Part shown: positions 2,113-21,488 of the stretch, in pieces
Layout: every line of letters begins with the position of its first letter
Position numbering within the stretch: position 1 is the stretch's first letter
Sequence record: MZ501069
Strand: one strand, 5' to 3'
Length of the DNA: 51,777 bases
Source: Escherichia phage FritzSarasin
Program-made: the position numbers and the translations under genes
Notes under the pieces: generated by a model
The model's input: only the letters and a program-made list of their open reading frames with translations
What the model was told of the DNA's origin: nothing
Database searches by the model: none

Positions 2113-2125
2113 GTTATATAATCAA

Positions 2126-2150: not shown

Positions 2151-2166
2151 TTATGGAGATTTGACT

Positions 2167-4211: not shown

Positions 4212-4221
4212 GAGGTGTTAA

Positions 4222-5337: not shown

Positions 5338-5349
5338 GGAGTAATTAAA

Positions 5350-5859: not shown

Positions 5860-5864
5860 AATCA

Positions 5865-5890
5865 AGGCGCTCGCTTGAGCGCCTTTTTTA
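5865..5890 (+). terminator. rho-independent terminator-like hairpin
   Basis: AGGCGCTC-GCTT-GAGCGCCT followed by TTTTTTATT. Confidence 0.6.
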
Positions 5891-5909
5891 TTATGTAAGG
5901 AGAAATGAA

Positions 5910-6692: not shown

Positions 6693-6717
6693 CTAATAGC
6701 ATAAAAAAACATTGCAC

Positions 6718-6736
6718 GTTTAACAAAAAGTGCTAT
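6718..6736 (-). promoter_or_regulatory. conserved motif copy, reverse orientation, upstream of capsid gene
   Basis: GTTTAACAAAAAGTGCTAT; pairs with partial AATAGCATAAAAAAAC at 6695-6710 as an inverted repeat. Confidence 0.45.
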
Positions 6737-6742
6737 CATCTA

Positions 6743-6769
6743 GGCCGTTACATTTAACGGCCTTTTTTA
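6743..6769 (+). terminator. rho-independent terminator-like hairpin
   Basis: GGCCGTTA-CATT-TAACGGCC followed by TTTTTTAT. Confidence 0.6.
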
Positions 6770-6782
6770 TGGAGGAAACAAA

Positions 6783-7754
6783 ATGGCTAAAAAATATGAT
6801 GAACTAGATGCTACGATTGTAGCGAATCATTTGCAGATTCAGGGTGTTAAGACCGACGCTTCTGATATGGGTATTTGGACCGCTCAAGAGCTACACAAGA
6901 TCCGCTCTACCGCATACGAGAAAGAGTATCCGGCAGGTTCCGCGCTTCGCGTATTCCCTGTAACAAACGAGCTTTCTGATACTGACAAGACTTTCGAATA
7001 TCAGACTTTTGATAAGGTTGGCTACGCGAAAATTATCGCCGACTACACCGATGATCTGCCGACTGTGGACGCGTTGATGACTTCTGAGTTTGGCAAAGTG
7101 TTCCGCCTGGGTAACGCTTATCTGATCTCCATTGATGAGATTAAAGCAGGTCAGCGAACTGGCAAGAGCCTGTCAACTCGCAAGGCTAACGCTGCGCAAA
7201 ATGCGCATGATCAGTTGATTAACTTCCTGGTGTTCAAAGGTTCCAAGCCTCATAAGATCGTTTCCGTTTTCGATCATCCTAACCTTACGAAAATTGCATC
7301 CAAAGGCTGGATGAGCAATGACGGCAATACCAAGTTCCCGCAGGTAGCAAGCGATGAACTGGAGGCCGCAATCGAAACGATCGAGGAAGTAACCAAAGGT
7401 CAGCACCGCGCGACCAATATCCTGATCCCGCCGTCCATGCGCAAAGTCCTGACGGTTCGAATGGAAAATACCACTGAAAGTTATCTGGAATACTTCCAGA
7501 AGCAAAACGGCGGTATCACTATCGACTCTATCGCAGAGCTTGAGGATATTGACGGCAAAGGTACGAAAGGTTGCTTGGTTTACGAAAAAGATCCAATGAA
7601 CATGAGCATTGAGATTCCAGAAGCGTTTAACATGCTTCCGGCGCAGCCAAAAGACCTACATTTCAAGGTTCCTTGCACTTCCAAGTGTACTGGCCTTACG
7701 ATTTATCGTCCGTTTACGATGGTGCTCATTACCGGCTTGAAAAAAGCTGAGTAA
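6783..7754 (+). CDS. major capsid protein
   Basis: 323 aa; strong RBS GGAGG; position and size typical of a siphovirus major capsid protein. Confidence 0.6.
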   Translation: MAKKYDELDATIVANHLQIQGVKTDASDMGIWTAQELHKIRSTAYEKEYPAGSALRVFPVTNELSDTDKTFEYQTFDKVGYAKIIADYTDDLPTVDALMTSEFGKVFRLGNAYLISIDEIKAGQRTGKSLSTRKANAAQNAHDQLINFLVFKGSKPHKIVSVFDHPNLTKIASKGWMSNDGNTKFPQVASDELEAAIETIEEVTKGQHRATNILIPPSMRKVLTVRMENTTESYLEYFQKQNGGITIDSIAELEDIDGKGTKGCLVYEKDPMNMSIEIPEAFNMLPAQPKDLHFKVPCTSKCTGLTIYRPFTMVLITGLKKAE

Positions 7755-7765
7755 TTAGATAACAT

Positions 7766-7794
7766 GGGGAGCCTTAAGGGTTCCCCTTTTTTTT
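7766..7794 (+). terminator. rho-independent terminator
   Basis: GGGGAGCCTTAAGGGTTCCCC followed by TTTTTTTT. Confidence 0.65.
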
Positions 7795-7812
7795 ATTTAT
7801 GGAGTGCATAAA

Positions 7813-8079
7813 ATGAGCAAAAATTTAAAACTTAAAGTAACTGGCGTTTGCATGATTATTATTGACGGTAAGCGTTATCATCCTGGTGATGAAATTGAAA
7901 TTGAATCTGAACGCATTAATGATTCCGCAATTGAATACCTGATCGCTCGCGGTGATGTGGAAGTTAAAGACAATTCCGAAATTAACGAGCAAATCAAGGC
8001 GAAAGCGGAGAAGAAGCGCAAAAAAGATCCTACCGAGGGCAAGAGCCGCAAAGAGCTAGAGGACGGCGGCGAATATTAA
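7813..8079 (+). CDS. hypothetical protein (head region)
   Basis: ATG 7813 with GGAG 8 nt upstream; 88 aa; K/E-rich C-terminus. Confidence 0.5.
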
Positions 8080-8125
8080 TAATTGGGGCGCTTATGCGCC
8101 CTTTGTCACATCTGGAGAAAACAAA

Positions 8126-8545
8126 ATGGTAGATGAATTTTACACAGACGCTGAAATCATGCAGCAAATCGTAAAGTTAGCGCCGCCAATGCAACAAGTT
8201 GATCCCGATTTAATTGTGGCATGGATTGAGCTTGCTAAAGAGTTTGTTTGCAAAAAGCGGTTTAAAAACTCATACCCGAAAGCGGTTGCGCTTTACACTC
8301 TTCACCTTATGACCTTAGACGGGGCAATGAAACAGGATGGTGAAAGCGTAGAAAGCTATTCCCGCCGCGTCGCCTCGTTCACTCTGACTGGTGAGTTTAG
8401 TCAGACGTTTGATCGAATCTCTTCCGATACAAGCGGAAAGCAGATCCGACAAACGCCGTGGGGCAAAATGTACGAAGTGTTAAACCGTAAGCACGGTGGC
8501 GGTTTTGGCCTTGTAACTGGATTGCGCCGGAGATGTTGCCGATGA
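8126..8545 (+). CDS. putative head-tail connector protein
   Basis: 139 aa with RBS; position between capsid and tail genes. Confidence 0.4.
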
Positions 8546-8913
8546 ACTACAATGAGATTGCAAGAATGGCTACGGCTGGGATTAACTTTTTCAGCGACGC
8601 TAACGGTATGTTTAAGTGCATCACGCAGCAGGGTGGAGTTGAGATTATCGGCGGAGAGGAAGTTACCAAGCCGGAGATTTCAGTGATGATAAAGGGGCTT
8701 GTTAGATCCCCTAGAACTAGAGAGGTTGACGGTGAAACAATCCGAGTAACCGACAAGTTGGGGATATTCACCAATGAAACTGAGATCAAAAATGGTTATC
8801 AGATTGAAATTGATGGCGAACGTTATGTTGTCGTTGAAGCAAGACCAGTCAGGCAGACTAACATCACGGCGGCTTATCGTCCGATATTAAGGAGGATTGC
8901 TGTGCATGGCTGA
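8533..8913 (+). CDS. putative head-tail adaptor protein
   Basis: 126 aa, overlaps previous gene; positional call. Confidence 0.4.
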
Positions 8914-9349
8914 TAACTATAAGATCAGGGAATTTCACGGTGATATAAGCAGGTGGATTGATTCAGTAAGCAGCGGCCTTGTTGATTGCGTTGAAATGTT
9001 CGCGACAAACGTCCACGAGGATCTTGTAAATCGCTCGCCAGTTGATACGGGCCGATATAAAGCCAACTGGCAGATAACAGCAAACAAGCCGCCGCTATAT
9101 GCGCTCAACCAATACGATCGCGATGGTAGTAAAACCATTGCAGAAGGCAAGCGAGCAATATATGCAATCATGCGTGGCGGTGGCGCGGTGCGGTCAATCT
9201 ATTTTTCAAACATGCTCATTTACGCCAACGCGCTTGAATACGGTCATTCAAAACAAGCGCCGTCCGGCGTACTTGGAATCGTGGCGGTAAAGCTGCGATC
9301 TTATATGGCTAAGGCAATAAAGGATTCGAGGGCAAAAAATGCACTATGA
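8906..9349 (+). CDS. putative tail completion protein
   Basis: ATG 8906 preceded by AGGAGG 8891-8896; 147 aa; positional call. Confidence 0.4.
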   Translation: MADNYKIREFHGDISRWIDSVSSGLVDCVEMFATNVHEDLVNRSPVDTGRYKANWQITANKPPLYALNQYDRDGSKTIAEGKRAIYAIMRGGGAVRSIYFSNMLIYANALEYGHSKQAPSGVLGIVAVKLRSYMAKAIKDSRAKNAL

Positions 9350-9740
9350 TTTAATGTTGGCGGCAAGAAAGGCGCTGGCGGCTGAATATGAATCACGATT
9401 TAAGATAGCATATGAAAACGTTGATTTTGTGCCGCCTGGAGATGGTTCTATGTGGTTAAAATTTGACTACATGGAAGCAGACACGGATCGCATATCTCTT
9501 GATAGAAAATGTGTTTCTTATATCGGTTTGGTTCAGGTTGGAATTGTCATTCCTCCTGGCGGCGGCACTGATAAAGCGCGTTTGCTGGCTAAAGAGATTG
9601 CGAGATTTTTCTATGATGGTAGAATGATTGAAACTGGCTATATTAGCGAGGGGGCAAACGTCCACACATTACTAAAAAGTGAAACAGGTTGGTTATTGCC
9701 GATCCGTTTCAGTGTTAGGCTTGATACAAAGGAGGAATAA
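9339..9740 (+). CDS. putative tail terminator protein
   Basis: 133 aa immediately upstream of the major tail gene; positional call. Confidence 0.4.
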   Translation: MHYDLMLAARKALAAEYESRFKIAYENVDFVPPGDGSMWLKFDYMEADTDRISLDRKCVSYIGLVQVGIVIPPGGGTDKARLLAKEIARFFYDGRMIETGYISEGANVHTLLKSETGWLLPIRFSVRLDTKEE

Positions 9741-9742
9741 TC

Positions 9743-10405
9743 ATGCACTTGCCTAATGGTTCTCAAATTTTCATCGGCGTTAATATGGGTGAGCCTATTA
9801 GCGCTACTCAAATCAGCAATGCTGATGATCCTGTTTTTACGACTGCAAACACTCAAAGCATCAAAAAAGGCGCTTATGTTCTTATTGAAACATCTTCTTG
9901 GGGTAAACTTGTTAGTCGCGTGCTTCGAGTTAAGGAAGTTTCAGATAATGCAAGTGTTACTCTTGAAGGTGTTAGCACTAAAGATACAAACGTATTTCCA
10001 GAAGGAGAGAACACAGCAACTTTCCGAGAGGTGAAATCTTGGGTAGAGATTCCTTGCGTACAGGATCTTGCGCAGGACGGCGGCGAACAACAGTATTACA
10101 CTTATCAGTGTTTGGCTGATGACCAGGAGCAGCAGTTACCGACCTATAAGAGCGCCGTTTCTCTTACCTACACTTTCGCGCATGAATATGATAACCCGAT
10201 TTATCCGATCTTGCGCGAGGCTGAGGAATCCGGCGACGTAACCGCTTTGCGTATGTACGTTCCGAAAGCTAAAGAGATGCGTTGCTGGGCTGGCGTATTG
10301 TCATTTAATGACATTCCGCAAACCACTATGAACGAAATGGAAACTGTTTCCCTTTCCGTATCTCTGAAAGGTCGATTTACGTTCTTATCTTCCGACATCA
10401 ATTAA
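9743..10405 (+). CDS. putative major tail protein
   Basis: 220 aa; strong RBS AAGGAGG; immediately before the G/G-T chaperone pair and tape measure, as in lambda-like tails. Confidence 0.55.
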   Translation: MHLPNGSQIFIGVNMGEPISATQISNADDPVFTTANTQSIKKGAYVLIETSSWGKLVSRVLRVKEVSDNASVTLEGVSTKDTNVFPEGENTATFREVKSWVEIPCVQDLAQDGGEQQYYTYQCLADDQEQQLPTYKSAVSLTYTFAHEYDNPIYPILREAEESGDVTALRMYVPKAKEMRCWAGVLSFNDIPQTTMNEMETVSLSVSLKGRFTFLSSDIN

Positions 10406-10410
10406 AACAA

Positions 10411-10431
10411 GGGGCGTTGCGCCCCTTTTTT
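10411..10431 (+). terminator. rho-independent terminator
   Basis: GGGGCG-TTG-CGCCCC followed by TTTTTT. Confidence 0.65.
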
Positions 10432-10471
10432 CATTCCTGTAAAATCAATCTATCAAATAAATCAATTCCAC

Positions 10472-10490
10472 TTTTAACAAAAAGTGCTAT
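10472..10490 (-). promoter_or_regulatory. conserved motif copy, reverse orientation, abutting RBS of chaperone gene
   Basis: TTTTAACAAAAAGTGCTAT directly followed by AAGGAG and ATG 10505. Confidence 0.45.
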
Positions 10491-10504
10491 AAGGAGATCT
10501 TGAG

Positions 10505-10822
10505 ATGGCAAAGATGAAACTAACGTTAGGCCCACTGCCTGATTTTAAGCTACCTGTTTCTTTTGTGCTTCCAAATGGTGATGAGCAAGTTATTGTTTTT
10601 ACCGTGCGCCACAAGAAGGCAAGCGAGATTCACGAACGATACACGGCAGAAAAGCCGATGAGCGACGTAGAAATGATCACCTTCCTTGCTTCCGGTTGGG
10701 ATCTGGAAGATGAATTTAACGAGGAAAACGTTGCTAAATTGCTGGATTATTACCCTTCTGCGTCATTATCGCTGACTGGTCATTATATGAAAGCACTTGC
10801 GGGGCAGCGGGTAAAAAACTAA
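10505..10822 (+). CDS. tail assembly chaperone (lambda G-like)
   Basis: 105 aa immediately upstream of tape measure; ends just after a slippery heptamer. Confidence 0.7.
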   Translation: MAKMKLTLGPLPDFKLPVSFVLPNGDEQVIVFTVRHKKASEIHERYTAEKPMSDVEMITFLASGWDLEDEFNEENVAKLLDYYPSASLSLTGHYMKALAGQRVKN

Positions 10823-11139
10823 AGCGGGCGGTTTACCTGTTTTACCTCAAGCCGCCAACTGACGCACAATTAGAGGCCGTCGGCCTATCCCGTTCAGACT
10901 ACGAAGGGGAGGAGCCGCCGGAGGTAATTTTTGATGAATCAATGTTTCAATCTTGGGATCTGTTTTGCGCTATGCAGACGCAATGGAGATCGACTAGCGG
11001 CAGTGTGTATGGGTTCGACTATAACGTTTTGCCTATGCTTTTTGACATTTACAAGATTGAGGATCGGGAGATGGCGCTAAATGATTTGCGCATCATGGAA
11101 CAAAAGGCGCTAGAAATGATTCATTCAAACAAAACATAA
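10505..11139 (+). CDS. tail assembly chaperone G-T fusion (via -1 frameshift)
   Basis: G frame to 10819, then -1 frame to stop at 11139; about 212 aa fusion; same arrangement as lambda G/GT. Confidence 0.55.
10813..10819 (+). other. programmed -1 ribosomal frameshift site (A AAA AAC)
   Basis: Heptamer A_AAA_AAC in the G frame, 3 nt before the G stop; the -1 frame is open with no stop from 10819 to 11139. Confidence 0.6.
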
Positions 11140-11159
11140 GCGCCGCAAGGCGCTTTTTT
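11139..11159 (+). terminator. terminator-like hairpin
   Basis: AGCGCCGCAAGGCGCT followed by TTTTTT. Confidence 0.5.
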
Positions 11160-11178
11160 AATATCTGGAGGTTTTAAA

Positions 11179-13860
11179 ATGGCTGAGAAATACGCTGGCC
11201 TAACGCTAGGCGTTGACGTGTCGCAGGTCAACAATGCTGTTAAATCATTGCAGCAATTCAAGAAGGCAAACGACGACGCAAAAAAAAGCGTTAATGAATT
11301 TGTTGATTCTGAGGTTGTGGCGCGACAGCAAGCTAAACAGTTTGCCGAAGAACTGGCGCGCCAGAAAGCAGAGTTTAAGAAAATCCAGGAGTCAATTGAT
11401 CCCACAGCGTCAAAGATGGATAAGCTGCGAAAAGCAGCGACACAGCTTGATGCGCTATGGAAAAAAGGCGTTGTTCCTGATGAGACTTTTTTTGAGCTTG
11501 GGGCAATTCTTGAGACACAGCAAAACAAGCTGATCGCAACCAAAAAGGCGATGACAGAGGAAGGCCGCGCGGCGCTTGAGGAATCAAAGAACAAGGCGCG
11601 TGCAGCGGAAGAGGCTAAAAAATTCATCCAGGCTTTGCGTGAGCAGGAAGAAGCAGCCGGAAAAAGCAAGTCTGAATTGCTGGAAATGAAAGCGGCACAG
11701 CTTGGAGTTAGCCAGGAGGCGGCGCCTTACATCGCAAGACTGAAAGAGCAGGAAAAGCAGATTCAAAAACTTGGGATTTCTACAGGCCAATACAATCAAG
11801 CAATGAAGCTATTGCCAATGCAGATCACAGACGTGGTGACTTCACTTGCTTCTGGTATGCCTGTTTGGCTGGTCGCAATCCAGCAGGGCGGACAGATTAA
11901 GGATTCTTTTGGTGGCGCATCCAATGCTTTAAAAGCGTTGCTATCTTTCCTGAATCCGGTAAACGTGGCTTTTGGCTTGCTTTCCGGCACGCTGGCAATT
12001 GCTGCATATAATGCCTACAAAACACAGACAGAGTTTGAGGCAATTAAAAAAACCGTTCAGGAAACAACTGGCTTGACTGGTGATTTTGCCGAAAAGATTG
12101 CTACAGGAATCCAGGAGCTTTCCGACAAGACGGGAGAAAGCGCAGAAGATCTGGCAAAGGCTTACATCACCACGAAAGACGGCGCGAGCGAGGCGATTAA
12201 AAAACTGGTTGACGTTGGCATGACTTATGATGATGCAAAAAAGAAAGTCAACGAGTACAAAGGCGCGTCTAGCTTTGTCAGCTTGAATAACGAAATTGCA
12301 AACCACAAAAACAAAGTCCTTGAGTTGGGCGACTCGTGGTATGAAGTTTTGAAAGCGAAGCGTGATTACGCTTCCCCGTCCGGCGGCCTGTTAGGTAAAG
12401 AGCTTGGCTATGTTAATCCTATGCTTAAGTTTGCACTTAACACTTATGAAGACATTGGAAAGGTCGTAAAAGATGCGAATAAGGACATGGCTGAACGAGC
12501 GGAGCGAATCGACAAAGAAAACCTTGCATTGAACAGAGTGAGAGCAGCGCAGGAGGCTTTAAACAAAGCCATTGAGGATCAGAAGGGTGTGGCGCGTTCG
12601 GCTGATGAAGAACTGAAAAAGCGTGCGGCTGAAAACGTGGAGTTCAGACGCAAAGAGCTTGAGGAGATCAAGAAGCAGGAGCAGAAAAAGAAAGAGGCTA
12701 AAGGCGGAATAGTTCGCGGACCAACTGAGCAGCTTGATAAAGAGTTGTACGTTTTAAAAGCGCAACTGGAAACGCTTAAAGAGCATCGCACTGTTAACGA
12801 TGTTATTTCTCGCCAGCGTAAATCTTTATGGAGCATCGAAAAGCAGATCGAGATCCTAGAGGATGCGCAGAGCAAGCGTAAATTGACCGGAGCGGAACAG
12901 GCGCTACTAAACGAGCAAAAAGCCGTTTTGGAAATGGCAAGGCAAAAGGCTGAATTAGGGGATCAGATTGTTTTGCAGGAGCGCAAAAACAAGCTGGAGC
13001 AAGATAGCATTAAGTTTATCCGTGAAACGCAGGCGGCTATTGATGTGCTTGGCCTTAAGCAACTTGGCTACACTGAAAAGCAGATCGAGCGTGAGCTAGA
13101 GTTACGCAAGCTGCGCACCGACTACGAGGCGCAAGGAGGAAGCGTTAGCGATGAAGTTTTTCAGCAAATGGGGGCGAAACTTAAGCAGTATTATCAGACA
13201 CAGGATGAGGTTCAAGGCAACTGGTTGGCAGGAGCAAAAAACGCATGGGAGCTATTCGCGGAAGATGCAAACAATGCCTATGGCAATGTTCAGCAGATCG
13301 CAAGCGAGGCGTTAAACGGCCTTACAAACCAATTAGCGAATTTTATCGCTACTGGCAAGGCAAACTTTAAAGACTTCTCGACGGCTATCATCAAAATGAT
13401 TATTCAGATGATCACGAAAATGGTTGTCTTTAATGCGTTATCTGGCCTGATGGGTGGTCAAACCTGGACGATGGGGAGCTTGCTTAAGAACATTGGCGGA
13501 TTTGCTGGCGGTGGATACACTGGCGACGGCGGGAAGTATGAGCCAGCCGGAATTGTCCATAAAGGTGAATTTGTCATGACGAAGGAGGCGACGCAGCGTA
13601 TCGGGGTAGGCAACTTGTACCGCATGATGCGAGGCTATGCTAACGGCGGCGTTGTTGGTAGTTCCGGCTATACTGGCGGTGGCGCTGTCACTGGTGGAGC
13701 ACCTCAATTTAACATTGGTGGGATTGATGTTAGCATCAATAACGGCAGCGATCCGAAGGGCATCGAAACTGGCGTTAAGATGATCTTTACTGATATGATT
13801 AAACGTTCCTGTATGCAGGGCGGAGAGGTTTACGAATTTGTTATGAGCAAGCGAGGTTGA
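11179..13860 (+). CDS. tail tape measure protein
   Basis: 893 aa; long coiled-coil-rich region, hydrophobic segments, glycine-rich C-terminus; position after G/G-T. Confidence 0.9.
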   Translation: MAEKYAGLTLGVDVSQVNNAVKSLQQFKKANDDAKKSVNEFVDSEVVARQQAKQFAEELARQKAEFKKIQESIDPTASKMDKLRKAATQLDALWKKGVVPDETFFELGAILETQQNKLIATKKAMTEEGRAALEESKNKARAAEEAKKFIQALREQEEAAGKSKSELLEMKAAQLGVSQEAAPYIARLKEQEKQIQKLGISTGQYNQAMKLLPMQITDVVTSLASGMPVWLVAIQQGGQIKDSFGGASNALKALLSFLNPVNVAFGLLSGTLAIAAYNAYKTQTEFEAIKKTVQETTGLTGDFAEKIATGIQELSDKTGESAEDLAKAYITTKDGASEAIKKLVDVGMTYDDAKKKVNEYKGASSFVSLNNEIANHKNKVLELGDSWYEVLKAKRDYASPSGGLLGKELGYVNPMLKFALNTYEDIGKVVKDANKDMAERAERIDKENLALNRVRAAQEALNKAIEDQKGVARSADEELKKRAAENVEFRRKELEEIKKQEQKKKEAKGGIVRGPTEQLDKELYVLKAQLETLKEHRTVNDVISRQRKSLWSIEKQIEILEDAQSKRKLTGAEQALLNEQKAVLEMARQKAELGDQIVLQERKNKLEQDSIKFIRETQAAIDVLGLKQLGYTEKQIERELELRKLRTDYEAQGGSVSDEVFQQMGAKLKQYYQTQDEVQGNWLAGAKNAWELFAEDANNAYGNVQQIASEALNGLTNQLANFIATGKANFKDFSTAIIKMIIQMITKMVVFNALSGLMGGQTWTMGSLLKNIGGFAGGGYTGDGGKYEPAGIVHKGEFVMTKEATQRIGVGNLYRMMRGYANGGVVGSSGYTGGGAVTGGAPQFNIGGIDVSINNGSDPKGIETGVKMIFTDMIKRSCMQGGEVYEFVMSKRG

Positions 13861-13862
13861 TA

Positions 13863-14213
13863 ATGAAGCTGGATCAGTTTAAGTGGTGTACGCAGGTTCA
13901 GAATGGCGGCGGGGCCATGACGTCATCGAATAACGATCGAGAGATTGCATTCGGTAACGGATACACACAGGTAGCATCTGGAGGTTTTAACACAATCCGG
14001 CGAGAGTTTAGCATTGTTTACGTTGGGCTTGACTACAGAGATGTTGTCAATTTCCTGAATGAGCACAGGCTAAAACCTTTCTTGTGGATCATGCCTGATG
14101 GAAGCCCTGGACTGTTCAGGGTGAAAAGCGGTAGCGTCGGCCTTACTCCACTGTCGCCAACCGTTCAGGAAGTAAAAGCCACTTTTACGGAGCAATTTAC
14201 ATCAATGCAGTAA
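13863..14213 (+). CDS. minor tail protein (lambda M-like)
   Basis: About 117 aa right after tape measure; order M-L-K-I-J. Confidence 0.75.
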   Translation: MKLDQFKWCTQVQNGGGAMTSSNNDREIAFGNGYTQVASGGFNTIRREFSIVYVGLDYRDVVNFLNEHRLKPFLWIMPDGSPGLFRVKSGSVGLTPLSPTVQEVKATFTEQFTSMQ

Positions 14214-14217
14214 TTTA

Positions 14218-14242
14218 AAGCCGCCTTTGTGCGGCTTTTTTA
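14218..14242 (+). terminator. terminator-like hairpin
   Basis: AAAGCCGC-CTTTGT-GCGGCTTT followed by TTTTATT. Confidence 0.5.
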
Positions 14243-14275
14243 TTGATGTTACAATGAGCAAAAAGGAGGTAGAAA

Positions 14276-15037
14276 ATGGCTAATAAAGAATCAGGTAGAG
14301 TTGAATTTGAGAACTGCCTACAAAGTTTGTACCCAGGAGAAATTATAACGCTTGTAGAGATTGACGGGACGAAGTTCGGGGCAAATATTTACCGATTTCA
14401 CAATGAGAACATCTCTTATACTGCCGAAGAATTAATGCAAGCGCAGCAAACCGGAATCTTGCCGCCGAAAGATATTATTTTCCGTGGTGAGGTTTACGGA
14501 GCGCGGCCTTTCGGTGTGAGCGGGATTAACTTCACAAGTAACGGCAGGGCAGATAAGCCTCAGCTTATAGTGTCAAACCTTGACAGCAGGGTTAGCTCCA
14601 TGATCAGAAATTACAATGGCATGATGCAAGCAAAGGTGACTTTCTGGATCACGGCAAGGGAATTTATCGGAGAAGACGGAGCAATCAAAGATGGCGCTTA
14701 CAGAAAATTGGTTTATTACATTGAGCGCCCAAGCCAGTACAATAGAGAGGTGGCGAAATTTGATCTGACATCGCCTTACGATATGGATGGATTAATGATC
14801 CCGCCTCGCATCACTCAAAGCGTTTGCTATTGGGCGCAAAGGGGGTGGTACAGGAGCGGAAAGGGTTGCTCTTATAACGGATCGGCAATGTTCGATAAAG
14901 ACAATAAGCCAGTAACAGATCCATCACAAGACTATTGCGCCGGAACTGTAACGGCTTGCAAATTGAGATTCGGTCAGCAAAACGAGTTGGATTTCGGCGG
15001 TTGCGCGGTGGCGTCACTGCTACGGAGGAATCAATAA
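14276..15037 (+). CDS. minor tail protein (lambda L-like)
   Basis: 253 aa; C-terminal cysteine cluster (C..C..C) as in the Fe-S-binding gpL family. Confidence 0.8.
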   Translation: MANKESGRVEFENCLQSLYPGEIITLVEIDGTKFGANIYRFHNENISYTAEELMQAQQTGILPPKDIIFRGEVYGARPFGVSGINFTSNGRADKPQLIVSNLDSRVSSMIRNYNGMMQAKVTFWITAREFIGEDGAIKDGAYRKLVYYIERPSQYNREVAKFDLTSPYDMDGLMIPPRITQSVCYWAQRGWYRSGKGCSYNGSAMFDKDNKPVTDPSQDYCAGTVTACKLRFGQQNELDFGGCAVASLLRRNQ

Positions 15038-15768
15038 TGATTAGTGCAAAAATTAAACTTGAAATAATGCAGCACGTTAAAGAGGAATACCCTAAAGAGG
15101 CTTGCGGCGTCATAACTCAAAAGTCACGGGTACAGAAATATCACCGCATAACCAACGTGCATGACGATCCAGAAAATCATTTTGAAATGGACGCCGTAGA
15201 ATACGCTGAATCGCTCGACAAAGGCGAATTAGTCGCGGTGGTGCATTCCCATTGCGGGGATGGTGCTAGTACGATACCGAGCGCGCACGACTCATGTATG
15301 TGCGATGAAATGGGTGTGTCGTGGATTATAGTGTCATGGCCCGAAGGTGATATGAGAATTGTCGAGCCGCAGGAGAGGCCGCTTATCGGTCGCCCGTGGT
15401 CGCTTGGGTCGTTCGATTGCTGGGGTCTTATCATGGCGTGGCATAAACAGCACGGAGTAGTATTGAATGACTTCCGAAAGCCTTACGAGTGGTGGAAGTC
15501 AGAATATGGTGAAAATCTTTACCAGGATAATTATTTAAAAGAGGGATTTATTGAAACTAACGAGCCTCCAAAACCTGGCGATATGGTGATTATGCAGCTA
15601 TCATCGCCAGTCTGGAATCATGCGGGGATTTATTTGGGTAACAACCAGCTATTACATCATGCGTTTGGAAAGTTATCTCGCATCGACTTGTATTCTGGAT
15701 GGTATCAGGAGCACACTGTAAAAATTTGCCGACATAAGGATCTGAAATATGACATTGAAAGTAATTAA
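15037..15768 (+). CDS. tail assembly protein (lambda K-like, MPN/JAB + NlpC/P60)
   Basis: ATG 15037 overlaps L stop (TAATG); JAB motif VVHSHCGDGASTIPSAHD; later Cys/His residues consistent with NlpC/P60. Confidence 0.8.
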   Translation: MISAKIKLEIMQHVKEEYPKEACGVITQKSRVQKYHRITNVHDDPENHFEMDAVEYAESLDKGELVAVVHSHCGDGASTIPSAHDSCMCDEMGVSWIIVSWPEGDMRIVEPQERPLIGRPWSLGSFDCWGLIMAWHKQHGVVLNDFRKPYEWWKSEYGENLYQDNYLKEGFIETNEPPKPGDMVIMQLSSPVWNHAGIYLGNNQLLHHAFGKLSRIDLYSGWYQEHTVKICRHKDLKYDIESN

Positions 15769-16348
15769 GTTATCTGGTTCCCTGGGTCGTAGATTTGGCG
15801 TCTTTCACAAAATGGCGGTTGACTCATACCCCGAGGCAATACGCGCGTTATCTTCCCAGGTTGAAGGGTTCAAAGACTACATGCAAAGCGAGGTTGGGTC
15901 GCGTATGCGTTACGCTGTTATTGTTGACGGCAAAGAGATTAGCCAGCATGACGAACGCACTTGGAAATGCGCGAAAGAGGTCAGGATAATTCCAATTCCC
16001 ACGGGGTCGAAGTCAGGAGGGCTGTTCCAATCCATACTTGGTGTTACCATCATGGCGGTGGCAGTGATTGCAAGTGGCGGCGTGGCGGCAATGATGGCTA
16101 GTTCGTTTGCGTCTTCTGCTTTCCTCATGGGTGGTGCTATCGCGCTTGGCGGTGTCATGCAAATGATCTCGCCGCAGCAGGGCGGAATGAAACTGCAAAG
16201 CCAATCAGCAGAAAACAGGCCTTCTTACGCTTTCGGCGGTGCAGTAAATACCACGGCGGCAGGTTATCCGGTTCCTTTGCCATATGGATATAGGACGGTA
16301 GGCGGCGCGATCTGGTCGGCTGGAAGCTACGCAGAAGATAAAGCATAA
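15749..16348 (+). CDS. tail assembly protein (lambda I-like)
   Basis: 199 aa; hydrophobic glycine/alanine-rich C-terminal region; between K and J. Confidence 0.7.
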   Translation: MTLKVIKLSGSLGRRFGVFHKMAVDSYPEAIRALSSQVEGFKDYMQSEVGSRMRYAVIVDGKEISQHDERTWKCAKEVRIIPIPTGSKSGGLFQSILGVTIMAVAVIASGGVAAMMASSFASSAFLMGGAIALGGVMQMISPQQGGMKLQSQSAENRPSYAFGGAVNTTAAGYPVPLPYGYRTVGGAIWSAGSYAEDKA

Positions 16349-16354
16349 AAAAAT

Positions 16355-16377
16355 ACCCGCCTTGCGCGGGTTTTTTT
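16355..16377 (+). terminator. rho-independent terminator
   Basis: ACCCGCC-TTG-CGCGGGT followed by TTTTTTT. Confidence 0.6.
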
Positions 16378-16426
16378 GTGCCTTTATAATGTGCAAACCA
16401 AGAAACAGCACAAAAGGTTAAAAGTC

Positions 16427-19400
16427 ATGGCTAAATATATGATAAGCGGCAGTAAGGGAGGCGGTCAAAAGCCCTACGTGCCAAAAGAGATGGAAGATAA
16501 CCTGATCTCGATAAACAAGATTAAAGTTTTGCTGGCTGTATCTGATGGCGAGTGCGATCCAGATTTTACGTTGCGCGATCTTTATCTTGATGATGTTCCG
16601 GTTATTGCCAGCGATGGCACTGTTAACTACGAGGGAGTTACGGCTGAATATAGACCAGGTACGCAGACGCAAGATTACATCCAGGGTTTTACTGACACAT
16701 CAAGTGAGGTTACAGTTGCCAGAGATATTACCGGAGACAATCCTTATGTTATTTCTGTTACAAATAAAAACCTATCTGCGGTAAGAATAAAGATCCTGAT
16801 GCCAGTAGGCATTAAGCAGGAGGATAACGGCGATCTTGTTGGCGTAAGGGTTGAGTATGCCGTAGATATGGCTGTTGATGGCGGTTCTTATAGCGAGGTT
16901 ATGAGAGATGTAATTGACGGCAAGACAAGATCAGGATACGACCGCAGCAGAAGGATTGATCTTCCTAAGTTTGATGAGCGCGTTTTAATCAGGGTTAAGC
17001 GACTTACCCCAGACAGCACATCTTCAAAGGTGACTGATAAAATCAAACTGCAAAGTTACGCTGAGGTTGTGGATGCAAAATTCCGTTATCCTCTGACTGG
17101 CCTTGTATTTGTAGAATTTGACAGCGAATTGTTTCCTACACAAATCCCTAACATTTCTATAAAAAAGAAATGGAAGATTATTAATGTGCCAAGCAACTAT
17201 GATCCAATATCAAGAGAATATCACGGGTCATGGGATGGGACTTTTAAAAAAGCGTGGTCAAATAATCCTGCATGGGTTCTTTATGATCTGGTGACGAATC
17301 AGCGTTATGGACTTGACCAGCGAGAGTTAGGAATACAGATCGACAAGTGGAGCTTATACGAGGCAGGCGTTTACTGTGATCAGAAAGTTCCAGACGGCAA
17401 GGGCGGTACAGAGCCTCGCTACCTATGCGATGTGGTGATCCAGAATCAGGTTGAGGCTTATCAGCTAATCCGTGACATTTGCTCAATCTTTCGCGGAATG
17501 AGCTTTTGGAATGGAGAGAGCTTATCAATCGTAATTGATAAACCGCGCGATCCATCATACGTGTTTACTAATGAAAACGTCATCAACGGTGATTTTCAGT
17601 ACACAGCAGCAAGCGAAAAAAGCATGTACACGCAATGTAATGTGACGTTTGACGACGAACAAAACATGTATCAGCAGGACGTAGAGGGGGTTTTTGATAC
17701 TGAGGCGGCATTACGATTTGGATACAATCCAACAAGCATTACAGCGATCGGGTGTACACGCAGGAGCGAAGCGAATCGTCGCGGTCGGTGGGTTTTGAAA
17801 ACAAACCTTAGAAGCACTACTGTAAACTTTGCTACCGGACTAGAGGGGATGATTCCATCCATAGGTGATGTGATTGCTATCGCTGATAATTTTCAGAGCA
17901 GCAATATAACGTTAAATCTTTCGGGCCGAGTAATGGAAGTTTCAGGCTTGCAAGTTTTCGTTCCGTTTAAAGTTGATGCGCGCCCTGGTGATTTTATTAT
18001 CATCAATAAGCCGGACGGCAAGCCAGTTAAGCGAACGATCTCAAAGGTGAGCGCAGACGGAAAAACCATTGAGTTAAATATTGGCTTTGGTTTTGATGTT
18101 AAGCCTGATACTGTTTTTGCGATTGACCGTACTGACCTTGCGTTGCAGCAATACGTTGTGACAACTATCAGCAAGGGTGATGACGAAAACGAGTTTACCT
18201 TTTCAATCACGGCTGTGGAGTACGATCCGAACAAATACGACGAGATTGATTATGGCGTAAACATTGATGACAGGCCAACTTCAATTGTTCAGCCTGACGT
18301 GATGGCAGCGCCGGAGAATGTTCAGATCTCATCTTATTCTCGCGTCGTGCAGGGTGTTAGCGTTGAAACTATGGTTGTTTCATGGGATAAGGTTCCTTAC
18401 GCATCGCTTTATGAAATGCAGTGGCGAAAAGGTGATGGTAACTGGCTGAATACGCCGCAGACCGCTAACAAAGAGATAGAGGTAGAAGGAATTTATTCAG
18501 GCAACTACCAAGTAAGGGTTAGATCTGTTTCTGCAAGTGGGAACACCTCCCCGTGGTCAAAGATTGTAACCGCCACCCTGACAGGTAAAGTTGGCGAGCC
18601 AGGAGCGCCGATTAATCTTACAGCTTCTGATAATGAAGTTTTTGGCATTCGTGTCAAATGGGGTATGCCGGAAGGATCAGGAGATACGGCTTACATTGAG
18701 CTTCACCAATCGCCAGATGGAACGGTGGAAAACTCAAGTTTGCTTACGCTGATCCCGTATCCTCAATATGAGTATTGGCATAGTACGTTACCAGCGGGGA
18801 AAGTTGTATGGTATAGAATCCGTAGCGTTGACAGAATAGGAAACGTTTCCGGCTGGACTGACTTTGTTCGTGGCATGGCGTCAGATGATGTTGAATCTGT
18901 TTTAGGCGACATTCTGGACAAGATTTTTGATACCGAAGCTGGTCAAGAAATCAAAGAGAACGCCATAGACAGTGCCAACAAAATCAAAGACCAAGCGCAA
19001 TCAATCATCCAGAACGCTTTGGCAAATGATTCTGATGTTAGAGTTATGAGAAAGGAGAATGGGAAACGGAAAGCTGAATTTAGGCAATCTATACAGATGA
19101 TTGCTGATGAAACAGAGGCAAGGGTAACAGCGTTAACGCAATTAAAAGCAGAATTTGATGAGGAGATAACTAGCGAAGTAACAAGACTTGATCAGGCGAT
19201 CGCAACAGAATCAGAAACGCGAGCAACAGCTATAGAGGAATTAAAATCACAGATTGGTGATGATATACAGGGGCAGTTAACGAGAGTTGAGGAAGCGATT
19301 GCAAGCGAAACAGAGGCGCGCGTTTCTGCCGATACTGCATTAACGGCAAAGTTTGGTGATCTTGAGTCGGCACTTACTGAAAAACTTGATTCATGGGCTG

Positions 19401-19852
19401 GCGTTGATTCCGTTGGTGCTCAATATTCAATGAAGCTGGGCCTAACCTATAACGGTCAGCAGTACAGCGCCGGAATGGTTATGCAGTTAACGCAATCACC
19501 GCAAGGATTAATATCACAGATTCTGTTTGACGCTAACAGATTCGCGATCATGACAAGTTCTAGCGGCGGGGCATATACGCTTCCTTTCGTGGTTGAGAAT
19601 AACCAGGTTTTCATCAATAGCTTACTTGTGAAAGATGGTTCAATAACTAATGCCATGATTGGAAACTTTATTCAGTCAAACAATTTTGTTCAAAATCAGC
19701 AAGGTTGGAGGCTTGATAAAAACGGAACATTTGAAAACTACGGATCAACTCCAGGAGAGGGAGCTACTAAATTCACCAACGAAGGATTGAAGGTAAAAGA
19801 TGCAAACGGAGTATTGAGGGTTGAAGTCGGAAGGATTACCGGAAGCTGGTAA
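16427..19852 (+). CDS. host specificity protein / central tail fibre (lambda J-like)
   Basis: About 1140 aa from ATG 16427 (track start 16376 lies inside the terminator); last gene of the tail module. Confidence 0.85.
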   Translation: MAKYMISGSKGGGQKPYVPKEMEDNLISINKIKVLLAVSDGECDPDFTLRDLYLDDVPVIASDGTVNYEGVTAEYRPGTQTQDYIQGFTDTSSEVTVARDITGDNPYVISVTNKNLSAVRIKILMPVGIKQEDNGDLVGVRVEYAVDMAVDGGSYSEVMRDVIDGKTRSGYDRSRRIDLPKFDERVLIRVKRLTPDSTSSKVTDKIKLQSYAEVVDAKFRYPLTGLVFVEFDSELFPTQIPNISIKKKWKIINVPSNYDPISREYHGSWDGTFKKAWSNNPAWVLYDLVTNQRYGLDQRELGIQIDKWSLYEAGVYCDQKVPDGKGGTEPRYLCDVVIQNQVEAYQLIRDICSIFRGMSFWNGESLSIVIDKPRDPSYVFTNENVINGDFQYTAASEKSMYTQCNVTFDDEQNMYQQDVEGVFDTEAALRFGYNPTSITAIGCTRRSEANRRGRWVLKTNLRSTTVNFATGLEGMIPSIGDVIAIADNFQSSNITLNLSGRVMEVSGLQVFVPFKVDARPGDFIIINKPDGKPVKRTISKVSADGKTIELNIGFGFDVKPDTVFAIDRTDLALQQYVVTTISKGDDENEFTFSITAVEYDPNKYDEIDYGVNIDDRPTSIVQPDVMAAPENVQISSYSRVVQGVSVETMVVSWDKVPYASLYEMQWRKGDGNWLNTPQTANKEIEVEGIYSGNYQVRVRSVSASGNTSPWSKIVTATLTGKVGEPGAPINLTASDNEVFGIRVKWGMPEGSGDTAYIELHQSPDGTVENSSLLTLIPYPQYEYWHSTLPAGKVVWYRIRSVDRIGNVSGWTDFVRGMASDDVESVLGDILDKIFDTEAGQEIKENAIDSANKIKDQAQSIIQNALANDSDVRVMRKENGKRKAEFRQSIQMIADETEARVTALTQLKAEFDEEITSEVTRLDQAIATESETRATAIEELKSQIGDDIQGQLTRVEEAIASETEARVSADTALTAKFGDLESALTEKLDSWAGVDSVGAQYSMKLGLTYNGQQYSAGMVMQLTQSPQGLISQILFDANRFAIMTSSSGGAYTLPFVVENNQVFINSLLVKDGSITNAMIGNFIQSNNFVQNQQGWRLDKNGTFENYGSTPGEGATKFTNEGLKVKDANGVLRVEVGRITGSW

Positions 19853-19875
19853 AAAAAAGGGGGCGTAGCCCCCTT
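19853..19875. terminator. bidirectional terminator
   Basis: AAAAAAAA-GGGGGCGTAGCCCCC-TTTAATT between convergent genes. Confidence 0.6.
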
Positions 19876-19880
19876 TAATT

Positions 19881-20507
19881 TTAATCATAGTGTGATGCAT
19901 TTATAACCAAAACAGATGAAGCGGTGTAAATACCAACAGGTCCAGGGGTTTGTGCAACCTGCCTAGAAAAAGAGTAGATCCCGTTACCATACGCGGCAGC
20001 TTGAGACTCAAAAATCATAAATCCACCTAAAGCCGGATTAGGTACAGAGTTTAACGCTGTTAGTGATGGCATTATTGCGCAAGGGTAGCCCAGGTTAACA
20101 TCAAACGCGATCCCGCTCACACCAACTTGCTTTGCATCAAGCGGCCTCATTTTTCCATGATAAACCATTTCACCATGAGCGTTATAAAACGCTATGCCGT
20201 GACTACCTGGAGGAGTCACCATGTTACTAAAAGCATAAACAATAACCTCCCCTTGATTATCAGATCTATCAATTCTTATTGCGTGCCTTCCACCATTGTT
20301 AAATTGCGTAAATGATATGTATGATTTAGCAGTCAATCTAACAAAGAAAAAACATACCCTATCAACAGGAATTGACGAAGTAAAAACGGTTCCGGTATTA
20401 GCAGATATTACGGCCCGATCAATTAGATTAACTGGAGTGAAATCTGGACTTAACCATAACGATCCGTCTGGTTTTTTTATGCTCATCCCGTACATTATCA
20501 CCCCCAA
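19881..20507 (-). CDS. hypothetical protein (cor-like operon, distal gene)
   Basis: 208 aa; start overlaps stop of upstream ORF by 10 nt. Confidence 0.55.
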   Translation of the reverse strand: MGVIMYGMSIKKPDGSLWLSPDFTPVNLIDRAVISANTGTVFTSSIPVDRVCFFFVRLTAKSYISFTQFNNGGRHAIRIDRSDNQGEVIVYAFSNMVTPPGSHGIAFYNAHGEMVYHGKMRPLDAKQVGVSGIAFDVNLGYPCAIMPSLTALNSVPNPALGGFMIFESQAAAYGNGIYSFSRQVAQTPGPVGIYTASSVLVINASHYD

Positions 20508-20776
20508 AAAGTATATATATATCTTGAATCAGATCCAGAAAGTCCACTCCATGTAACGGTGTCGCCACTTACTCCTAAGCTTGGTGCGCCAGGGTCGCCA
20601 CCGCGCCAGGAATTCATGCCAACATATATTGCTTTCAATGATTTACCTGGCGGCCTGTTTTGGTAAGTCTTGCTACCTGATGGCTGAGTGAATTTATCAA
20701 GAAAGAAAACAGGCGTTAAAAGTCCTGTAACTTCCCTCCCTCGATCGTCATATATTGCATAACCATATTGCGCCAT
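20498..20776 (-). CDS. hypothetical protein (cor-like operon, middle gene)
   Basis: 92 aa; start overlaps lipoprotein stop by 1 nt (TAATG). Confidence 0.5.
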   Translation of the reverse strand: MAQYGYAIYDDRGREVTGLLTPVFFLDKFTQPSGSKTYQNRPPGKSLKAIYVGMNSWRGGDPGAPSLGVSGDTVTWSGLSGSDSRYIYTFWG

Positions 20777-21051
20777 TAATTACACCTCAAATCAATAAAT
20801 TTACTTTCATTTTGCCAGCGGTTGATAAATTTAACTTCTTTATTGTCAACGCTCAACCTGTATTGCTTTTGGCTGAATCTGTTTTCGCGGACTGCATTAA
20901 TTTTGACCTCATGGAATCCGTTAACAGGGAATGTTTTAACGTTAAATTTTGCCGTGCAATCGATCTCTTTGAAGCCGCCAGTAGGCGACGCTGCGCATCC
21001 GGTCAGAGCGGCTACGGTGGCGATAACTGCGATTAATTTTTTCATCTTCAA
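20776..21051 (-). CDS. small lipoprotein, Cor-like superinfection-exclusion candidate
   Basis: 91 aa; signal peptide with lipobox LTGC; Cor-like by size, lipoprotein character and proximity to tail genes; homology not verified. Confidence 0.5.
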   Translation of the reverse strand: MKMKKLIAVIATVAALTGCAASPTGGFKEIDCTAKFNVKTFPVNGFHEVKINAVRENRFSQKQYRLSVDNKEVKFINRWQNESKFIDLRCN

Positions 21052-21100
21052 TACTCCTTAGTTGTCGTTGCCTGTAACTATACACGATCCGACAAGCGGC

Positions 21101-21120
21101 GTTTAGCAAAAAGTGCTACT
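21101..21120 (-). promoter_or_regulatory. conserved promoter-module motif, variant copy (leftward)
   Basis: Minus-strand reading AGTAGCACTTTTTGCTAAAC, about 21 nt, then TATAGT; lipoprotein ATG about 70 nt downstream. Confidence 0.5.
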
Positions 21121-21488
21121 TGTTATTTTTTGTTTTTCGGTGTTATCGAATTTAAGACGGCGTAAATTTAGCTCAAATTTTAGCCAACATGAGAGCGATA
21201 AACAATCAATAAAATAGATATATACATATAAAATCAATAGTTTATTTATTTATGTATGTATATTTGTTTTTTCTTGTTATCTGTGTTTCTTGTGGTTTTG
21301 GTTGTTTGTGGTGATTTTTCTTTCTGAGTATCTGTATGTGCCATCATTCATGTGTATGTATATAATCCGGCGTATCTGAGAGAACAAGGGAACAAGAAAA
21401 ATAACACATATTAATCATTGACTTACATTTCAAATTTGTTTTCTTGCAATCTAAGAACGTTTAGAAAACAGAAAAAACAAAACAACTA

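What the first reader, a model, noticed from the sequence alone, without database searches (positions are those of the whole stretch)
19881..21051. Cor-like lipoprotein in a three-gene translationally coupled leftward operon
The 91-aa lipoprotein (lipobox LTGC) is followed by two ORFs of 92 and 208 aa whose starts overlap the preceding stops, all on the strand opposite to the tail genes and driven by a motif module at 21101. In related phages a Cor-like lipoprotein blocks the phage receptor to exclude superinfection. The two coupled partners have no assigned role and may take part in exclusion or fibre assembly.
Basis: partly seen in the sequence, partly recalled or inferred. Interest (0 to 1): 0.5.

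Follow-up and report, generated by a model that had tools for sequence, protein, structure and literature searches.

The report
Phage receptor-recognition and self-exclusion gene cassette
This three-gene operon is the receptor module of a T1-like coliphage, almost certainly BASEL phage Bas04: a small lipoprotein predicted to block the host receptor from inside, a small helper protein, and the tail-tip receptor-binding protein; the receptor is the vitamin B12 transporter BtuB, not FhuA, and the locus is already described.

Summary
A leftward operon at 19881-21045 encodes a lipoprotein (89 aa, lipobox LTG|C), a 92-aa protein and a 204-aa protein. The genes are tightly coupled, preceded by a genome-wide promoter-like module, and end at a bidirectional terminator shared with gpJ.

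The interpretation needs correction. The window is almost certainly Escherichia phage FritzSarasin (Bas04). Its terminal receptor was shown experimentally to be BtuB, not FhuA.

The locus is the known receptor-specificity cassette that lies directly downstream of gpJ in small siphoviruses.
- **Lipoprotein:** a distant Cor relative, with the same three cysteines as T1 Cor (phrog_1119, E 1e-7). By analogy with T5/BF23 Llp and Rtp45 it probably blocks BtuB from the periplasm.
- **92-aa protein:** always travels with the RBP. Its role (adaptor or assembly factor) is not established.

A same-genus FhuA phage (Bas05) differs in exactly this segment (19867-20991).

The locus is already described in the BASEL papers and a 2026 preprint. 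Interest is low. What remains open is the role of the 92-aa protein, the exclusion mechanism, and homologues of the pair in Stx phages.

The parts
21077..21118 (-). Promoter-like module: TAGCACTTTTTG (21107-21118), a 24-nt spacer, then TATAGT (21077-21082), followed by the leader caacgacaac
   Evidence: The 12-mer has 16 exact copies in the window against 0.01 expected. Aligned copies share the architecture motif, roughly 20-nt spacer, -10-like hexamer, leader, RBS. The same module lies upstream of the lipoprotein genes of Bas06 and Bas05. The canonical sigma-70 scan found no minus-strand site here.
21054..21059 (-). Shine-Dalgarno AAGGAG, 8 nt upstream of ATG 21045
   Evidence: Read from the sequence.
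20776..21045 (-). Lipoprotein, 89 aa precursor (mature about 73 aa): signal peptide plus lipobox LTG|C (Cys17), Ala at +2, and conserved Cys30 and Cys88. Predicted superinfection-exclusion factor directed at BtuB; distant Cor/Llp relative.
20498..20776 (-). 92-aa accessory protein (bas04_0024). It has no signal peptide or transmembrane segment. Its start overlaps the lipoprotein stop (TAATG).
   Evidence: phrog_557 at E 3.9e-20. It lies immediately upstream of the 204-aa homologue in every locus inspected (Bas06, JenP2, 933W, Cyrano); the two tblastn hit lists are about the same size, 277 and 296 phage records. The N-terminal 38 residues are nearly invariant. Maximum Kyte-Doolittle(19) hydropathy is 0.55. 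dN/dS is 0.135.
19881..20495 (-). 204-aa receptor-binding protein (predicted to bind BtuB). All-beta, with no signal peptide.
19856..19876 (.). Bidirectional intrinsic terminator shared by gpJ (+) and the operon (-)
   Evidence: A 9-bp stem with 6 GC pairs and T-runs on both strands.
19867..20991 (.). Exchangeable receptor-specificity cassette: mature lipoprotein, 92-aa gene and 204-aa gene
   Evidence: blastn against the same-genus FhuA phage Bas05 shows homology ending at 19866 and resuming at 20992. Positions 1-19227 are 95.3% identical. Homology to the BtuB phage Bas06 is continuous across this segment.
16427..19852 (+). gpJ-like central tail fibre / tail tip protein (1141 aa from ATG 16427), the presumed attachment site of the RBP
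   Evidence: The extreme C-terminus is conserved across BtuB, FhuA and LptD phages.

Best explanation
The operon is the BtuB-type receptor-specificity cassette of a Warwickvirus (Drexlerviridae), almost certainly phage FritzSarasin, Bas04. One transcript starts at the phage's standard promoter module and ends at the terminator shared with gpJ. It yields three proteins.

1. **Lipoprotein.** It is exported, lipidated at Cys17 and, with Ala at +2, sorted to the inner leaflet of the outer membrane. There it is predicted to bind the periplasmic face of the TonB-dependent transporter BtuB and lock it in a state that cannot bind the phage. That would exclude superinfection and keep progeny from being lost on cell debris. 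This step is inferred by analogy with T5 Llp-FhuA, BF23 Llp-BtuB and Rtp45-LptD.

2. **92-aa protein.** A cytoplasmic protein that always accompanies the RBP. It most likely acts as an adaptor or assembly partner at the gpJ tip. This is the weakest step.

3. **204-aa protein.** An all-beta protein that docks non-covalently on the gpJ tip and binds the extracellular face of BtuB, triggering irreversible adsorption. Fold and genetics support this; binding has not been shown.

**Shown:** gene structure, homology, fold similarity, cassette boundaries, and BtuB dependence of the phage (from the literature).

**Inferred:** which protein contacts what, and when each is made.
For: **Identity and receptor.** The window is 51777 bp, the genome size of Bas04, whose closest relative is tonnikala. 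A 100%-identical protein is named bas04_0024 and comes from a 51777-bp contig. Bas04 and Bas06 both use BtuB (BASEL S5 Table). RB-TnSeq hits for Bas04 are btuB, sdaC and dcrB.

**Locus type.** The literature describes RBP plus exclusion genes directly downstream of gpJ.

**Genetics.** Bas05, a same-genus FhuA phage, is 95% identical over all head and tail genes. In the virion genes it differs only in the gpJ C-terminal part, this cassette and the lateral fibre. The gpJ C-terminus does not track the receptor. The BtuB specificity must therefore lie in the cassette, and the lipoprotein cannot be a virion adhesin.

**Design.** Oekolampad has the same layout, gpJ followed by a convergent operon of exclusion lipoprotein then RBP. 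Rtp45 was shown to bind LptD from the periplasm.

**Lipoprotein.** It has the Cor cysteine pattern, and the Llp/Cor disulphide is a family hallmark. BF23 Llp blocks BtuB.
Against: - No experiment on these three proteins exists. RBP-BtuB binding rests on AF3 models, and the ipTM for Bas04 is only 0.47.
- The RBP shows no significant sequence similarity to the Oekolampad RBP (hhalign E 0.29).
- In phage Cyrano the pair sits among accessory genes, not tail genes. In 933W it lies next to the moron lom. Both fit a non-structural role.
- A 2026 paper assumes the T1 homologues belong to the exclusion mechanism.
- An exclusion protein would also co-vary with the receptor.
- Putting an RBP (needed late) and an exclusion factor (needed early) on one promoter of the type used mainly for non-structural genes is unexplained.
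Confidence: 0.8

Rival explanations
1. One reading: a Cor lipoprotein that blocks FhuA, with two partners of unknown role that may help exclusion.
For: The three proteins fall in the same PHROGs (1119, 557, 425) as the T1 cor cassette, which is found in FhuA phages.
Against: The phage uses BtuB. Near-identical loci occur in warwickviruses that are not FhuA-dependent. The FhuA phage Bas05 of the same genus carries a non-homologous cassette in the same place. Identity to T1 Cor outside the signal peptide is marginal.
Confidence: 0.04
2. All three proteins form an exclusion or host-modifying cassette acting in the infected cell (the 'membrane-associated' and 'outer membrane' proteins of current annotation). 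The true RBP is then the gpJ C-terminus.
For: PHROG and RefSeq names, and the KanT1 paper's assumption. The pair lies in non-tail contexts in Cyrano and next to lom in 933W. The operon uses the promoter type of non-structural genes. Receptor co-variation would also be expected for exclusion proteins.
Confidence: 0.1
3. The 92-aa protein, not the 204-aa protein, is the receptor-contacting subunit, or the two form an obligate heterodimeric adhesin. The 204-aa protein would then mainly be the connector to gpJ.
For: The 92-aa protein has a nearly invariant N-terminal half and a variable C-terminal half. The preprint finds receptor-predictive k-mers in accessory proteins as well. The LptD-type cassette lacks this gene, so it is specific to the TonB-dependent-transporter-type cassettes.
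Against: The 204-aa protein is the one that shares a fold and terminal motifs with the solved RBP. It is the less conserved of the two between Bas04 and Bas06 (65.7% against 72.5% identity), as expected of the receptor-contacting part.
Confidence: 0.15

Closest known systems
BtuB-type RBP locus of Drexlerviridae and Dhillonvirus (for example Bas06 KarlJaspers bas06_0024-0026; Maffei et al. 2021; preprint 10.64898/2026.04.02.716166)
   Same: Same three genes in the same order and orientation, convergent with gpJ, with a conserved promoter module. Identities are 56%, 72% and 66%. Both phages use BtuB.
   Different: Nothing essential. The window is itself a member (Bas04) of this described set.
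Oekolampad (Bas18) and Rtp LptD module: RBP (bas18_0025 / Rtp44) plus exclusion lipoprotein (bas18_0026 / Rtp45), PDB 9rpt (PMC12685063)
   Different: The receptor is LptD, which is not a TonB-dependent transporter. The RBP is 321 aa and there is no 92-aa partner gene. There is no significant sequence similarity. The exclusion mechanism there is steric loop displacement.
T1 / N15 / phi80 / HK022 'cor cassette' (T1 ST32, ST31 and cor ST30; Bas05 bas05_0023-0025)
   Same: Same three PHROG families, same position after gpJ, same small-then-large gene order for the pair, and the same Cor cysteine pattern.
   Different: The receptor is FhuA. The pair is co-directional with gpJ and cor is a separate convergent gene, whereas here all three form one leftward operon. 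Pairwise similarity is only marginal.
T5 pb5/Llp and BF23 Hrs/Llp
   Same: An RBP gene lies next to a small exclusion lipoprotein with an intramolecular disulphide. Llp binds the periplasmic face of a TonB-dependent transporter, and BF23 Llp blocks BtuB.

Membership tests
Cor/Llp-type superinfection-exclusion lipoproteins | Signal peptide with lipobox, and a small mature protein (about 60-75 aa) | tested here: met
   MKKLIAVIATVAALTG|C; the mature protein is 73 aa with Ala at +2.
Cor/Llp-type superinfection-exclusion lipoproteins | Conserved cysteine pair (intramolecular disulphide) near the N- and C-termini of the mature protein | tested here: met
   C30 and C88 are invariant in 13 homologues and align with the cysteines of T1 and Bas05 Cor. 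Llp has a Cys11-Cys58 disulphide. The bond itself was not verified.
Cor/Llp-type superinfection-exclusion lipoproteins | Profile-level sequence membership in the Cor family | tested here: inconclusive
   phrog_1119 gives E 1.2e-7 over the full length, against 3.3e-30 for T1 Cor. BLASTP to T1 Cor aligns only the signal peptide region. There is no Pfam family hit.
Cor/Llp-type superinfection-exclusion lipoproteins | Llp-like fold | tested here: inconclusive
Cor/Llp-type superinfection-exclusion lipoproteins | Expression blocks the cognate receptor and excludes phages that use it | not testable with these tools
   Needs expression and plating assays.
Cor sensu stricto (FhuA-inactivating) | The encoding phage depends on FhuA and the protein inactivates FhuA | tested here: not met
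   The phage is BtuB-dependent. Relatives with this locus are not FhuA-dependent.
gpJ-downstream RBP locus of small siphoviruses (Maffei et al. 2021) | [quoted passage not shown] | tested here: met
   gpJ ends at 19852 and the cassette spans 19881-21045.
gpJ-downstream RBP locus of small siphoviruses (Maffei et al. 2021) | The allele of the locus matches the terminal receptor and is exchanged as a cassette | tested here: met
   Bas04 and Bas06 (both BtuB) share the cassette. Bas05 (FhuA, same genus) has a non-homologous one between identical flanks.
gpJ-downstream RBP locus of small siphoviruses (Maffei et al. 2021) | The RBP resembles an experimentally validated RBP of this locus | tested here: met
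gpJ-downstream RBP locus of small siphoviruses (Maffei et al. 2021) | The RBP is a virion component that binds the receptor | not testable with these tools
   Only AF3 models from the preprint exist (ipTM 0.47 for Bas04, 0.82 for Bas06).
T1/N15/phi80 cor cassette (gp22-gp23-cor) | Homologues of all three proteins are present | tested here: met
   The same PHROGs 557, 425 and 1119 are matched by the T1 proteins ST32, ST31 and ST30.
T1/N15/phi80 cor cassette (gp22-gp23-cor) | The pair is co-transcribed with gpJ and cor is a separate convergent gene | tested here: not met
   Here the pair is inverted and lies downstream of the lipoprotein gene in one operon.

The most novel reading that the evidence does not exclude
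The BtuB-, FhuA- and LptD-specific RBPs of small siphoviruses, described as unrelated families, may be one ancient fold family. They would share gpJ-docking termini: an N-terminal 'YG..I....G' hairpin and a C-terminal 'LVI...Y' strand.

In the cassettes for TonB-dependent transporters, the adhesin would be a two-protein unit, the 92-aa protein plus the RBP.

The same pair, 44-50% identical, in 933W-type Stx-converting podophages would then mean that these phages use BtuB or a related TonB-dependent transporter as a receptor. That would be in addition to, or instead of, the reported BamA.
Probability: 0.2. Interest if true: 0.55.

Novelty: already known. Interest (0 to 1): 0.22.

Why it matters
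The cassette determines which outer-membrane protein the phage uses and which phages an infected cell excludes. That makes it the part to swap when engineering host range, and the part to read when predicting receptors from genomes. For this phage the receptor (BtuB) and the locus are already published, so the finding adds little. Three things stay open: there is no biochemical proof of BtuB binding, no mechanism for blocking BtuB in Drexlerviridae, and no known role for the 92-aa partner, which is also carried by Shiga-toxin phages.

Tried and rejected
- **Pfam:** no family for any of the three proteins.
- **PDB sequence searches:** single sequences and profiles gave nothing significant.
- **Lipoprotein fold:** Foldseek against the PDB found nothing.
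- **hhalign of the BtuB-type families against the Oekolampad RBP and exclusion lipoprotein:** not significant, or the signal peptide only.
- **BLASTP to the T1 ST31, ST32 and Cor proteins:** marginal.
- **'Split RBP' idea** (92 aa plus 204 aa equals the 321-aa single-chain LptD RBP): rejected. The 204-aa protein alone carries both the N-terminal and the C-terminal motifs of the Oekolampad RBP, and the 92-aa protein matches no part of it.
- **Internal homology between the 92-aa and 204-aa proteins:** only a 21-residue hairpin motif, probability 22%.
- **Canonical sigma-70 scan:** no minus-strand promoter upstream of the operon. The repeated module has a 21-23 nt gap between the -35-like and -10-like hexamers, so it is not a textbook promoter.
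- **gpJ C-terminus as specificity determinant:** rejected, because its identity profile does not track the receptor.
- **Literature link between 933W and BtuB:** none found.

Full report
**What is in the sequence**

Between the gpJ-like tail-tip gene (ATG 16427 to 19852, + strand) and the exonuclease VIII gene (21547, + strand) lie three minus-strand ORFs.

- The first ORF is a lipoprotein. The ORF lister starts it at TTG 21051 (91 aa). However, AAGGAG (21054-21059) lies 8 nt before ATG 21045, and relatives annotate 89 aa. The signal peptide and lipobox read MKKLIAVIATVAALTG|C, with Ala at +2.
- Its TAA stop overlaps the ATG of the 92-aa ORF (TAATG).
- The 92-aa stop is followed after 2 nt by the ATG (20495) of a 204-aa protein. 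All 14 database homologues begin MYGM, so the 208-aa TTG form is an artefact.
- A 9-bp GC-rich hairpin at 19856-19876 scores as a terminator on both strands.
- Sixty-seven nt upstream of the first ATG is TAGCACTTTTTG, followed 24 nt later by TATAGT. This 12-mer occurs 16 times in the window (0.01 expected), each time in the same arrangement of motif, spacer, -10-like hexamer, leader and RBS.
- Comparison with the Bas06 orthologues gives dN/dS of 0.09-0.14 with saturated synonymous sites.

**Which phage, and which receptor**

The region is 99.4% identical to phage tonnikala, and 65 phage records (nearly all Escherichia phages, those checked being Warwickvirus or related Tempevirinae) carry the whole locus.

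The BASEL S5 Table lists Bas04 FritzSarasin as a Warwickvirus whose closest relative is tonnikala and whose genome is 51777 bp. That is exactly the window length. Its terminal receptor is BtuB. A protein 100% identical to the 92-aa ORF is named bas04_0024 and comes from a 51777-bp contig.

A 2026 preprint reports RB-TnSeq hits for Bas04 in btuB, sdaC and dcrB, and lists an RBP for it. Lewis et al. 2023 state that their warwickviruses are not FhuA-dependent. Two of these, JLBYU16 and JLBYU19, have this locus at 95-98% identity.

**What the locus is**

BASEL (2021, 2025), van den Berg et al. (2022) and the 2026 preprint all describe the region directly downstream of gpJ in Drexlerviridae, Dhillonvirus and Queuovirinae as encoding the RBP and a cognate exclusion protein. 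Alleles match the receptor.

Bas06 KarlJaspers, also a BtuB phage, has the same three genes in the same order. Identities are 56%, 72% and 66%, and it has the same promoter module.

Bas05 PeterMerian belongs to the same genus but uses FhuA. It carries the T1-type arrangement instead: gpJ, then a 103-aa gene and a 197-aa gene on the same strand, and a convergent 75-aa cor.

blastn of the window against Bas05 shows 95.3% identity over 1-19227, which covers all head and tail genes. The gpJ C-terminal part is diverged. There is no homology over 19867-20991, and homology resumes inside the lipoprotein signal peptide. The exchanged unit is thus the mature lipoprotein plus the two partner genes. The promoter, 5' UTR and signal peptide act as a shared flank.

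The gpJ C-terminus of Bas04 is no closer to that of Bas06 (BtuB) than to that of Bas05 (FhuA). Specificity must therefore lie in the cassette. Because the lipoprotein is exported in the host, the virion adhesin has to be one or both of the other two proteins.

**The 204-aa protein**

- It has no signal peptide or transmembrane segment, so the database name 'membrane associated protein' (phrog_425) is not supported by the sequence.
- AlphaFold2 on 15 sequences gives a confident all-beta model (pLDDT 88.8, pTM 0.85).
- That RBP is experimentally validated. It is encoded in the same design, gpJ followed by a convergent operon of exclusion lipoprotein then RBP.
- Sequence similarity is not significant. 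The two do share an N-terminal hairpin motif (MYGMSIKKPDGS in the window; MGAGILIDYNDGR in Oekolampad), an internal 'GI..(Y/T)N' motif, and a C-terminal ending (VLVINASHYD; LLVIPNMY). The FhuA-type protein shows the same features.
- The N-terminal 20 residues are the most conserved part of the protein but have low pLDDT. This fits a segment that becomes ordered only on a partner.
- The preprint's AF3 BtuB-RBP models are 'sound', with ipTM 0.82 for Bas06 and JK16 but only 0.47 for Bas04.

I take this protein to be the BtuB-binding RBP, at roughly 0.8.

**The lipoprotein**

It matches the Cor PHROG weakly: E 1.2e-7, against 4e-11 for Bas06 and 3e-30 for T1 Cor. BLASTP to T1 Cor aligns only the signal peptide region.

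The alignment nevertheless places its three invariant cysteines (C17, C30, C88) and a C-terminal 'NF....C' motif on those of T1 and Bas05 Cor. Llp and Cor share such an intramolecular disulphide.

There is mechanistic precedent. [quoted passage not shown] BF23 Llp blocks BtuB. Rtp45 binds LptD from the periplasm. BtuB is a TonB-dependent transporter like FhuA, so an Llp-like reverse-allosteric block is the most likely mechanism. This is an inference, at about 0.65-0.7.

**The 92-aa protein**

- It has no export signal and matches phrog_557.
- It lies immediately upstream of the RBP homologue in every locus I inspected: Bas06, JenP2 (Nonagvirus), 933W and Cyrano. The tblastn hit lists of the two proteins are about the same size, 277 and 296 phage records, and both include Dhillonvirus and about 100 Stx-converting phages. 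The T1-type cassette has the same small-then-large pair.
- The lipoprotein occurs in only 89 records. The pair is therefore a unit that does not depend on the lipoprotein.
- Its N-terminal 38 residues are nearly invariant and its C-terminal half is variable.
- The LptD-type cassette lacks it.
- I considered that the 92-aa and 204-aa proteins might be a split version of the 321-aa LptD RBP. I rejected this, because the 204-aa protein already carries both terminal motifs and the 92-aa protein matches nothing in the Oekolampad RBP.

Its role remains open: adaptor to gpJ, assembly factor or co-adhesin.

**Counter-evidence and rivals**

- In phage Cyrano the pair lies among accessory genes, and in 933W it precedes the moron lom.
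- The KanT1 paper assumes that the T1 homologues act in exclusion.
- An exclusion protein would also co-vary with the receptor.
- The promoter module is otherwise found mostly in front of non-structural genes. Putting the RBP and the exclusion factor on one promoter is unexplained.

These points keep an 'all-exclusion cassette' reading at about 0.1. The FhuA/Cor reading is at about 0.04.

**Novelty and verdict**

The locus type, its link to the receptor, and even this phage's receptor and predicted RBP are published.

- the fold link between the BtuB-type RBP and the solved LptD-type RBP, although the preprint calls these families unrelated;
- the exact cassette junctions;
- the Cor-type cysteine pattern in the BtuB-type lipoprotein;
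- the note that 933W-type Stx phages carry the same pair.

Noticed in passing
window, 16 sites: 6724, 10478, 21107, 37272, 37946, 40872, 42175 (- strand); 26740, 30790, 31861, 43524, 43987, 45205, 46473, 46844, 49653 (+ strand): There is a genome-wide module: 'aaaTAGCACTTTTTGttaaaac', a spacer of about 20 nt that is often an inverted repeat (for example gccaggcgcaaagcctggc at 43545), a -10-like (c/t)ATAAT or TATAGT, the leader 'catcgaaacgaaac', and an RBS. It has 16 exact copies against 0.01 expected. The gap between the -35-like and -10-like hexamers is 21-23 nt, too long for a textbook sigma-70 promoter. Two copies (6724, 10478) lie antisense within the structural gene block. It could be a regulator binding site rather than a -35 element.
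   Followed up: partly
L004 (phage 933W) 6720-7621; about 100 Stx-converting phage records: 933W-type Stx podophages carry the same small-plus-large pair (L0126 and L0127; 50% and 44% identical to the window proteins). It lies downstream of tail genes and next to lom, with no lipoprotein. No paper in the library mentions both 933W and BtuB. The reported receptor of these phages is BamA (from my own knowledge).
   Followed up: partly
L009 (phage Cyrano, 108 kb) 5998-6896: The same pair (93 aa plus 201 aa) sits among P1 TciA/TciB-like, DUF4942 and Ea-type accessory genes, far from any annotated tail gene. This context does not fit a simple RBP role.
   Followed up: no
window 20495-20420 and 20776-20700; L007 9620-9540; L008 20050-20440: An N-terminal 'M(A)xYGxx(I/L)xxxxG' hairpin motif is shared by the 92-aa protein, the 204-aa protein (again at residues 99-112), both FhuA-type proteins of Bas05, and the solved Oekolampad RBP. 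A C-terminal 'h-h-h-I-x-x-x-Y' ending is shared by the three large proteins. These may be the docking elements for gpJ.
   Followed up: partly
window 21103-21387 (- strand): Relatives (Kalemo, MikeNSara) annotate three tiny CDS (29-44 aa) here. In the window the first one (21103-21237) contains the promoter module, and the region 21240-21400 is A/C-rich low-complexity sequence. These are probably over-called genes.
   Followed up: no
window 19228-19336 (gpJ C-terminal part): The gpJ of Bas04 is 1141 aa, while Bas05 (FhuA) and Bas06 (BtuB) both have 1192 aa. The window has a 109-bp segment without homology where Bas05 has 262 bp. This indel does not track the receptor.
   Followed up: partly
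window 16376-16426: The ORF lister starts gpJ at TTG 16376 (1158 aa). Annotated relatives, and the sequence MAKYMISGS, point to ATG 16427 (1141 aa).
   Followed up: no
whole window (host factors, from preprint supplement): RB-TnSeq for Bas04 and for MikeNSara also selects sdaC and dcrB besides btuB. This is the same trio known for the classical BtuB phage C1 (from my own knowledge) and probably reflects a step after adsorption.
   Followed up: no
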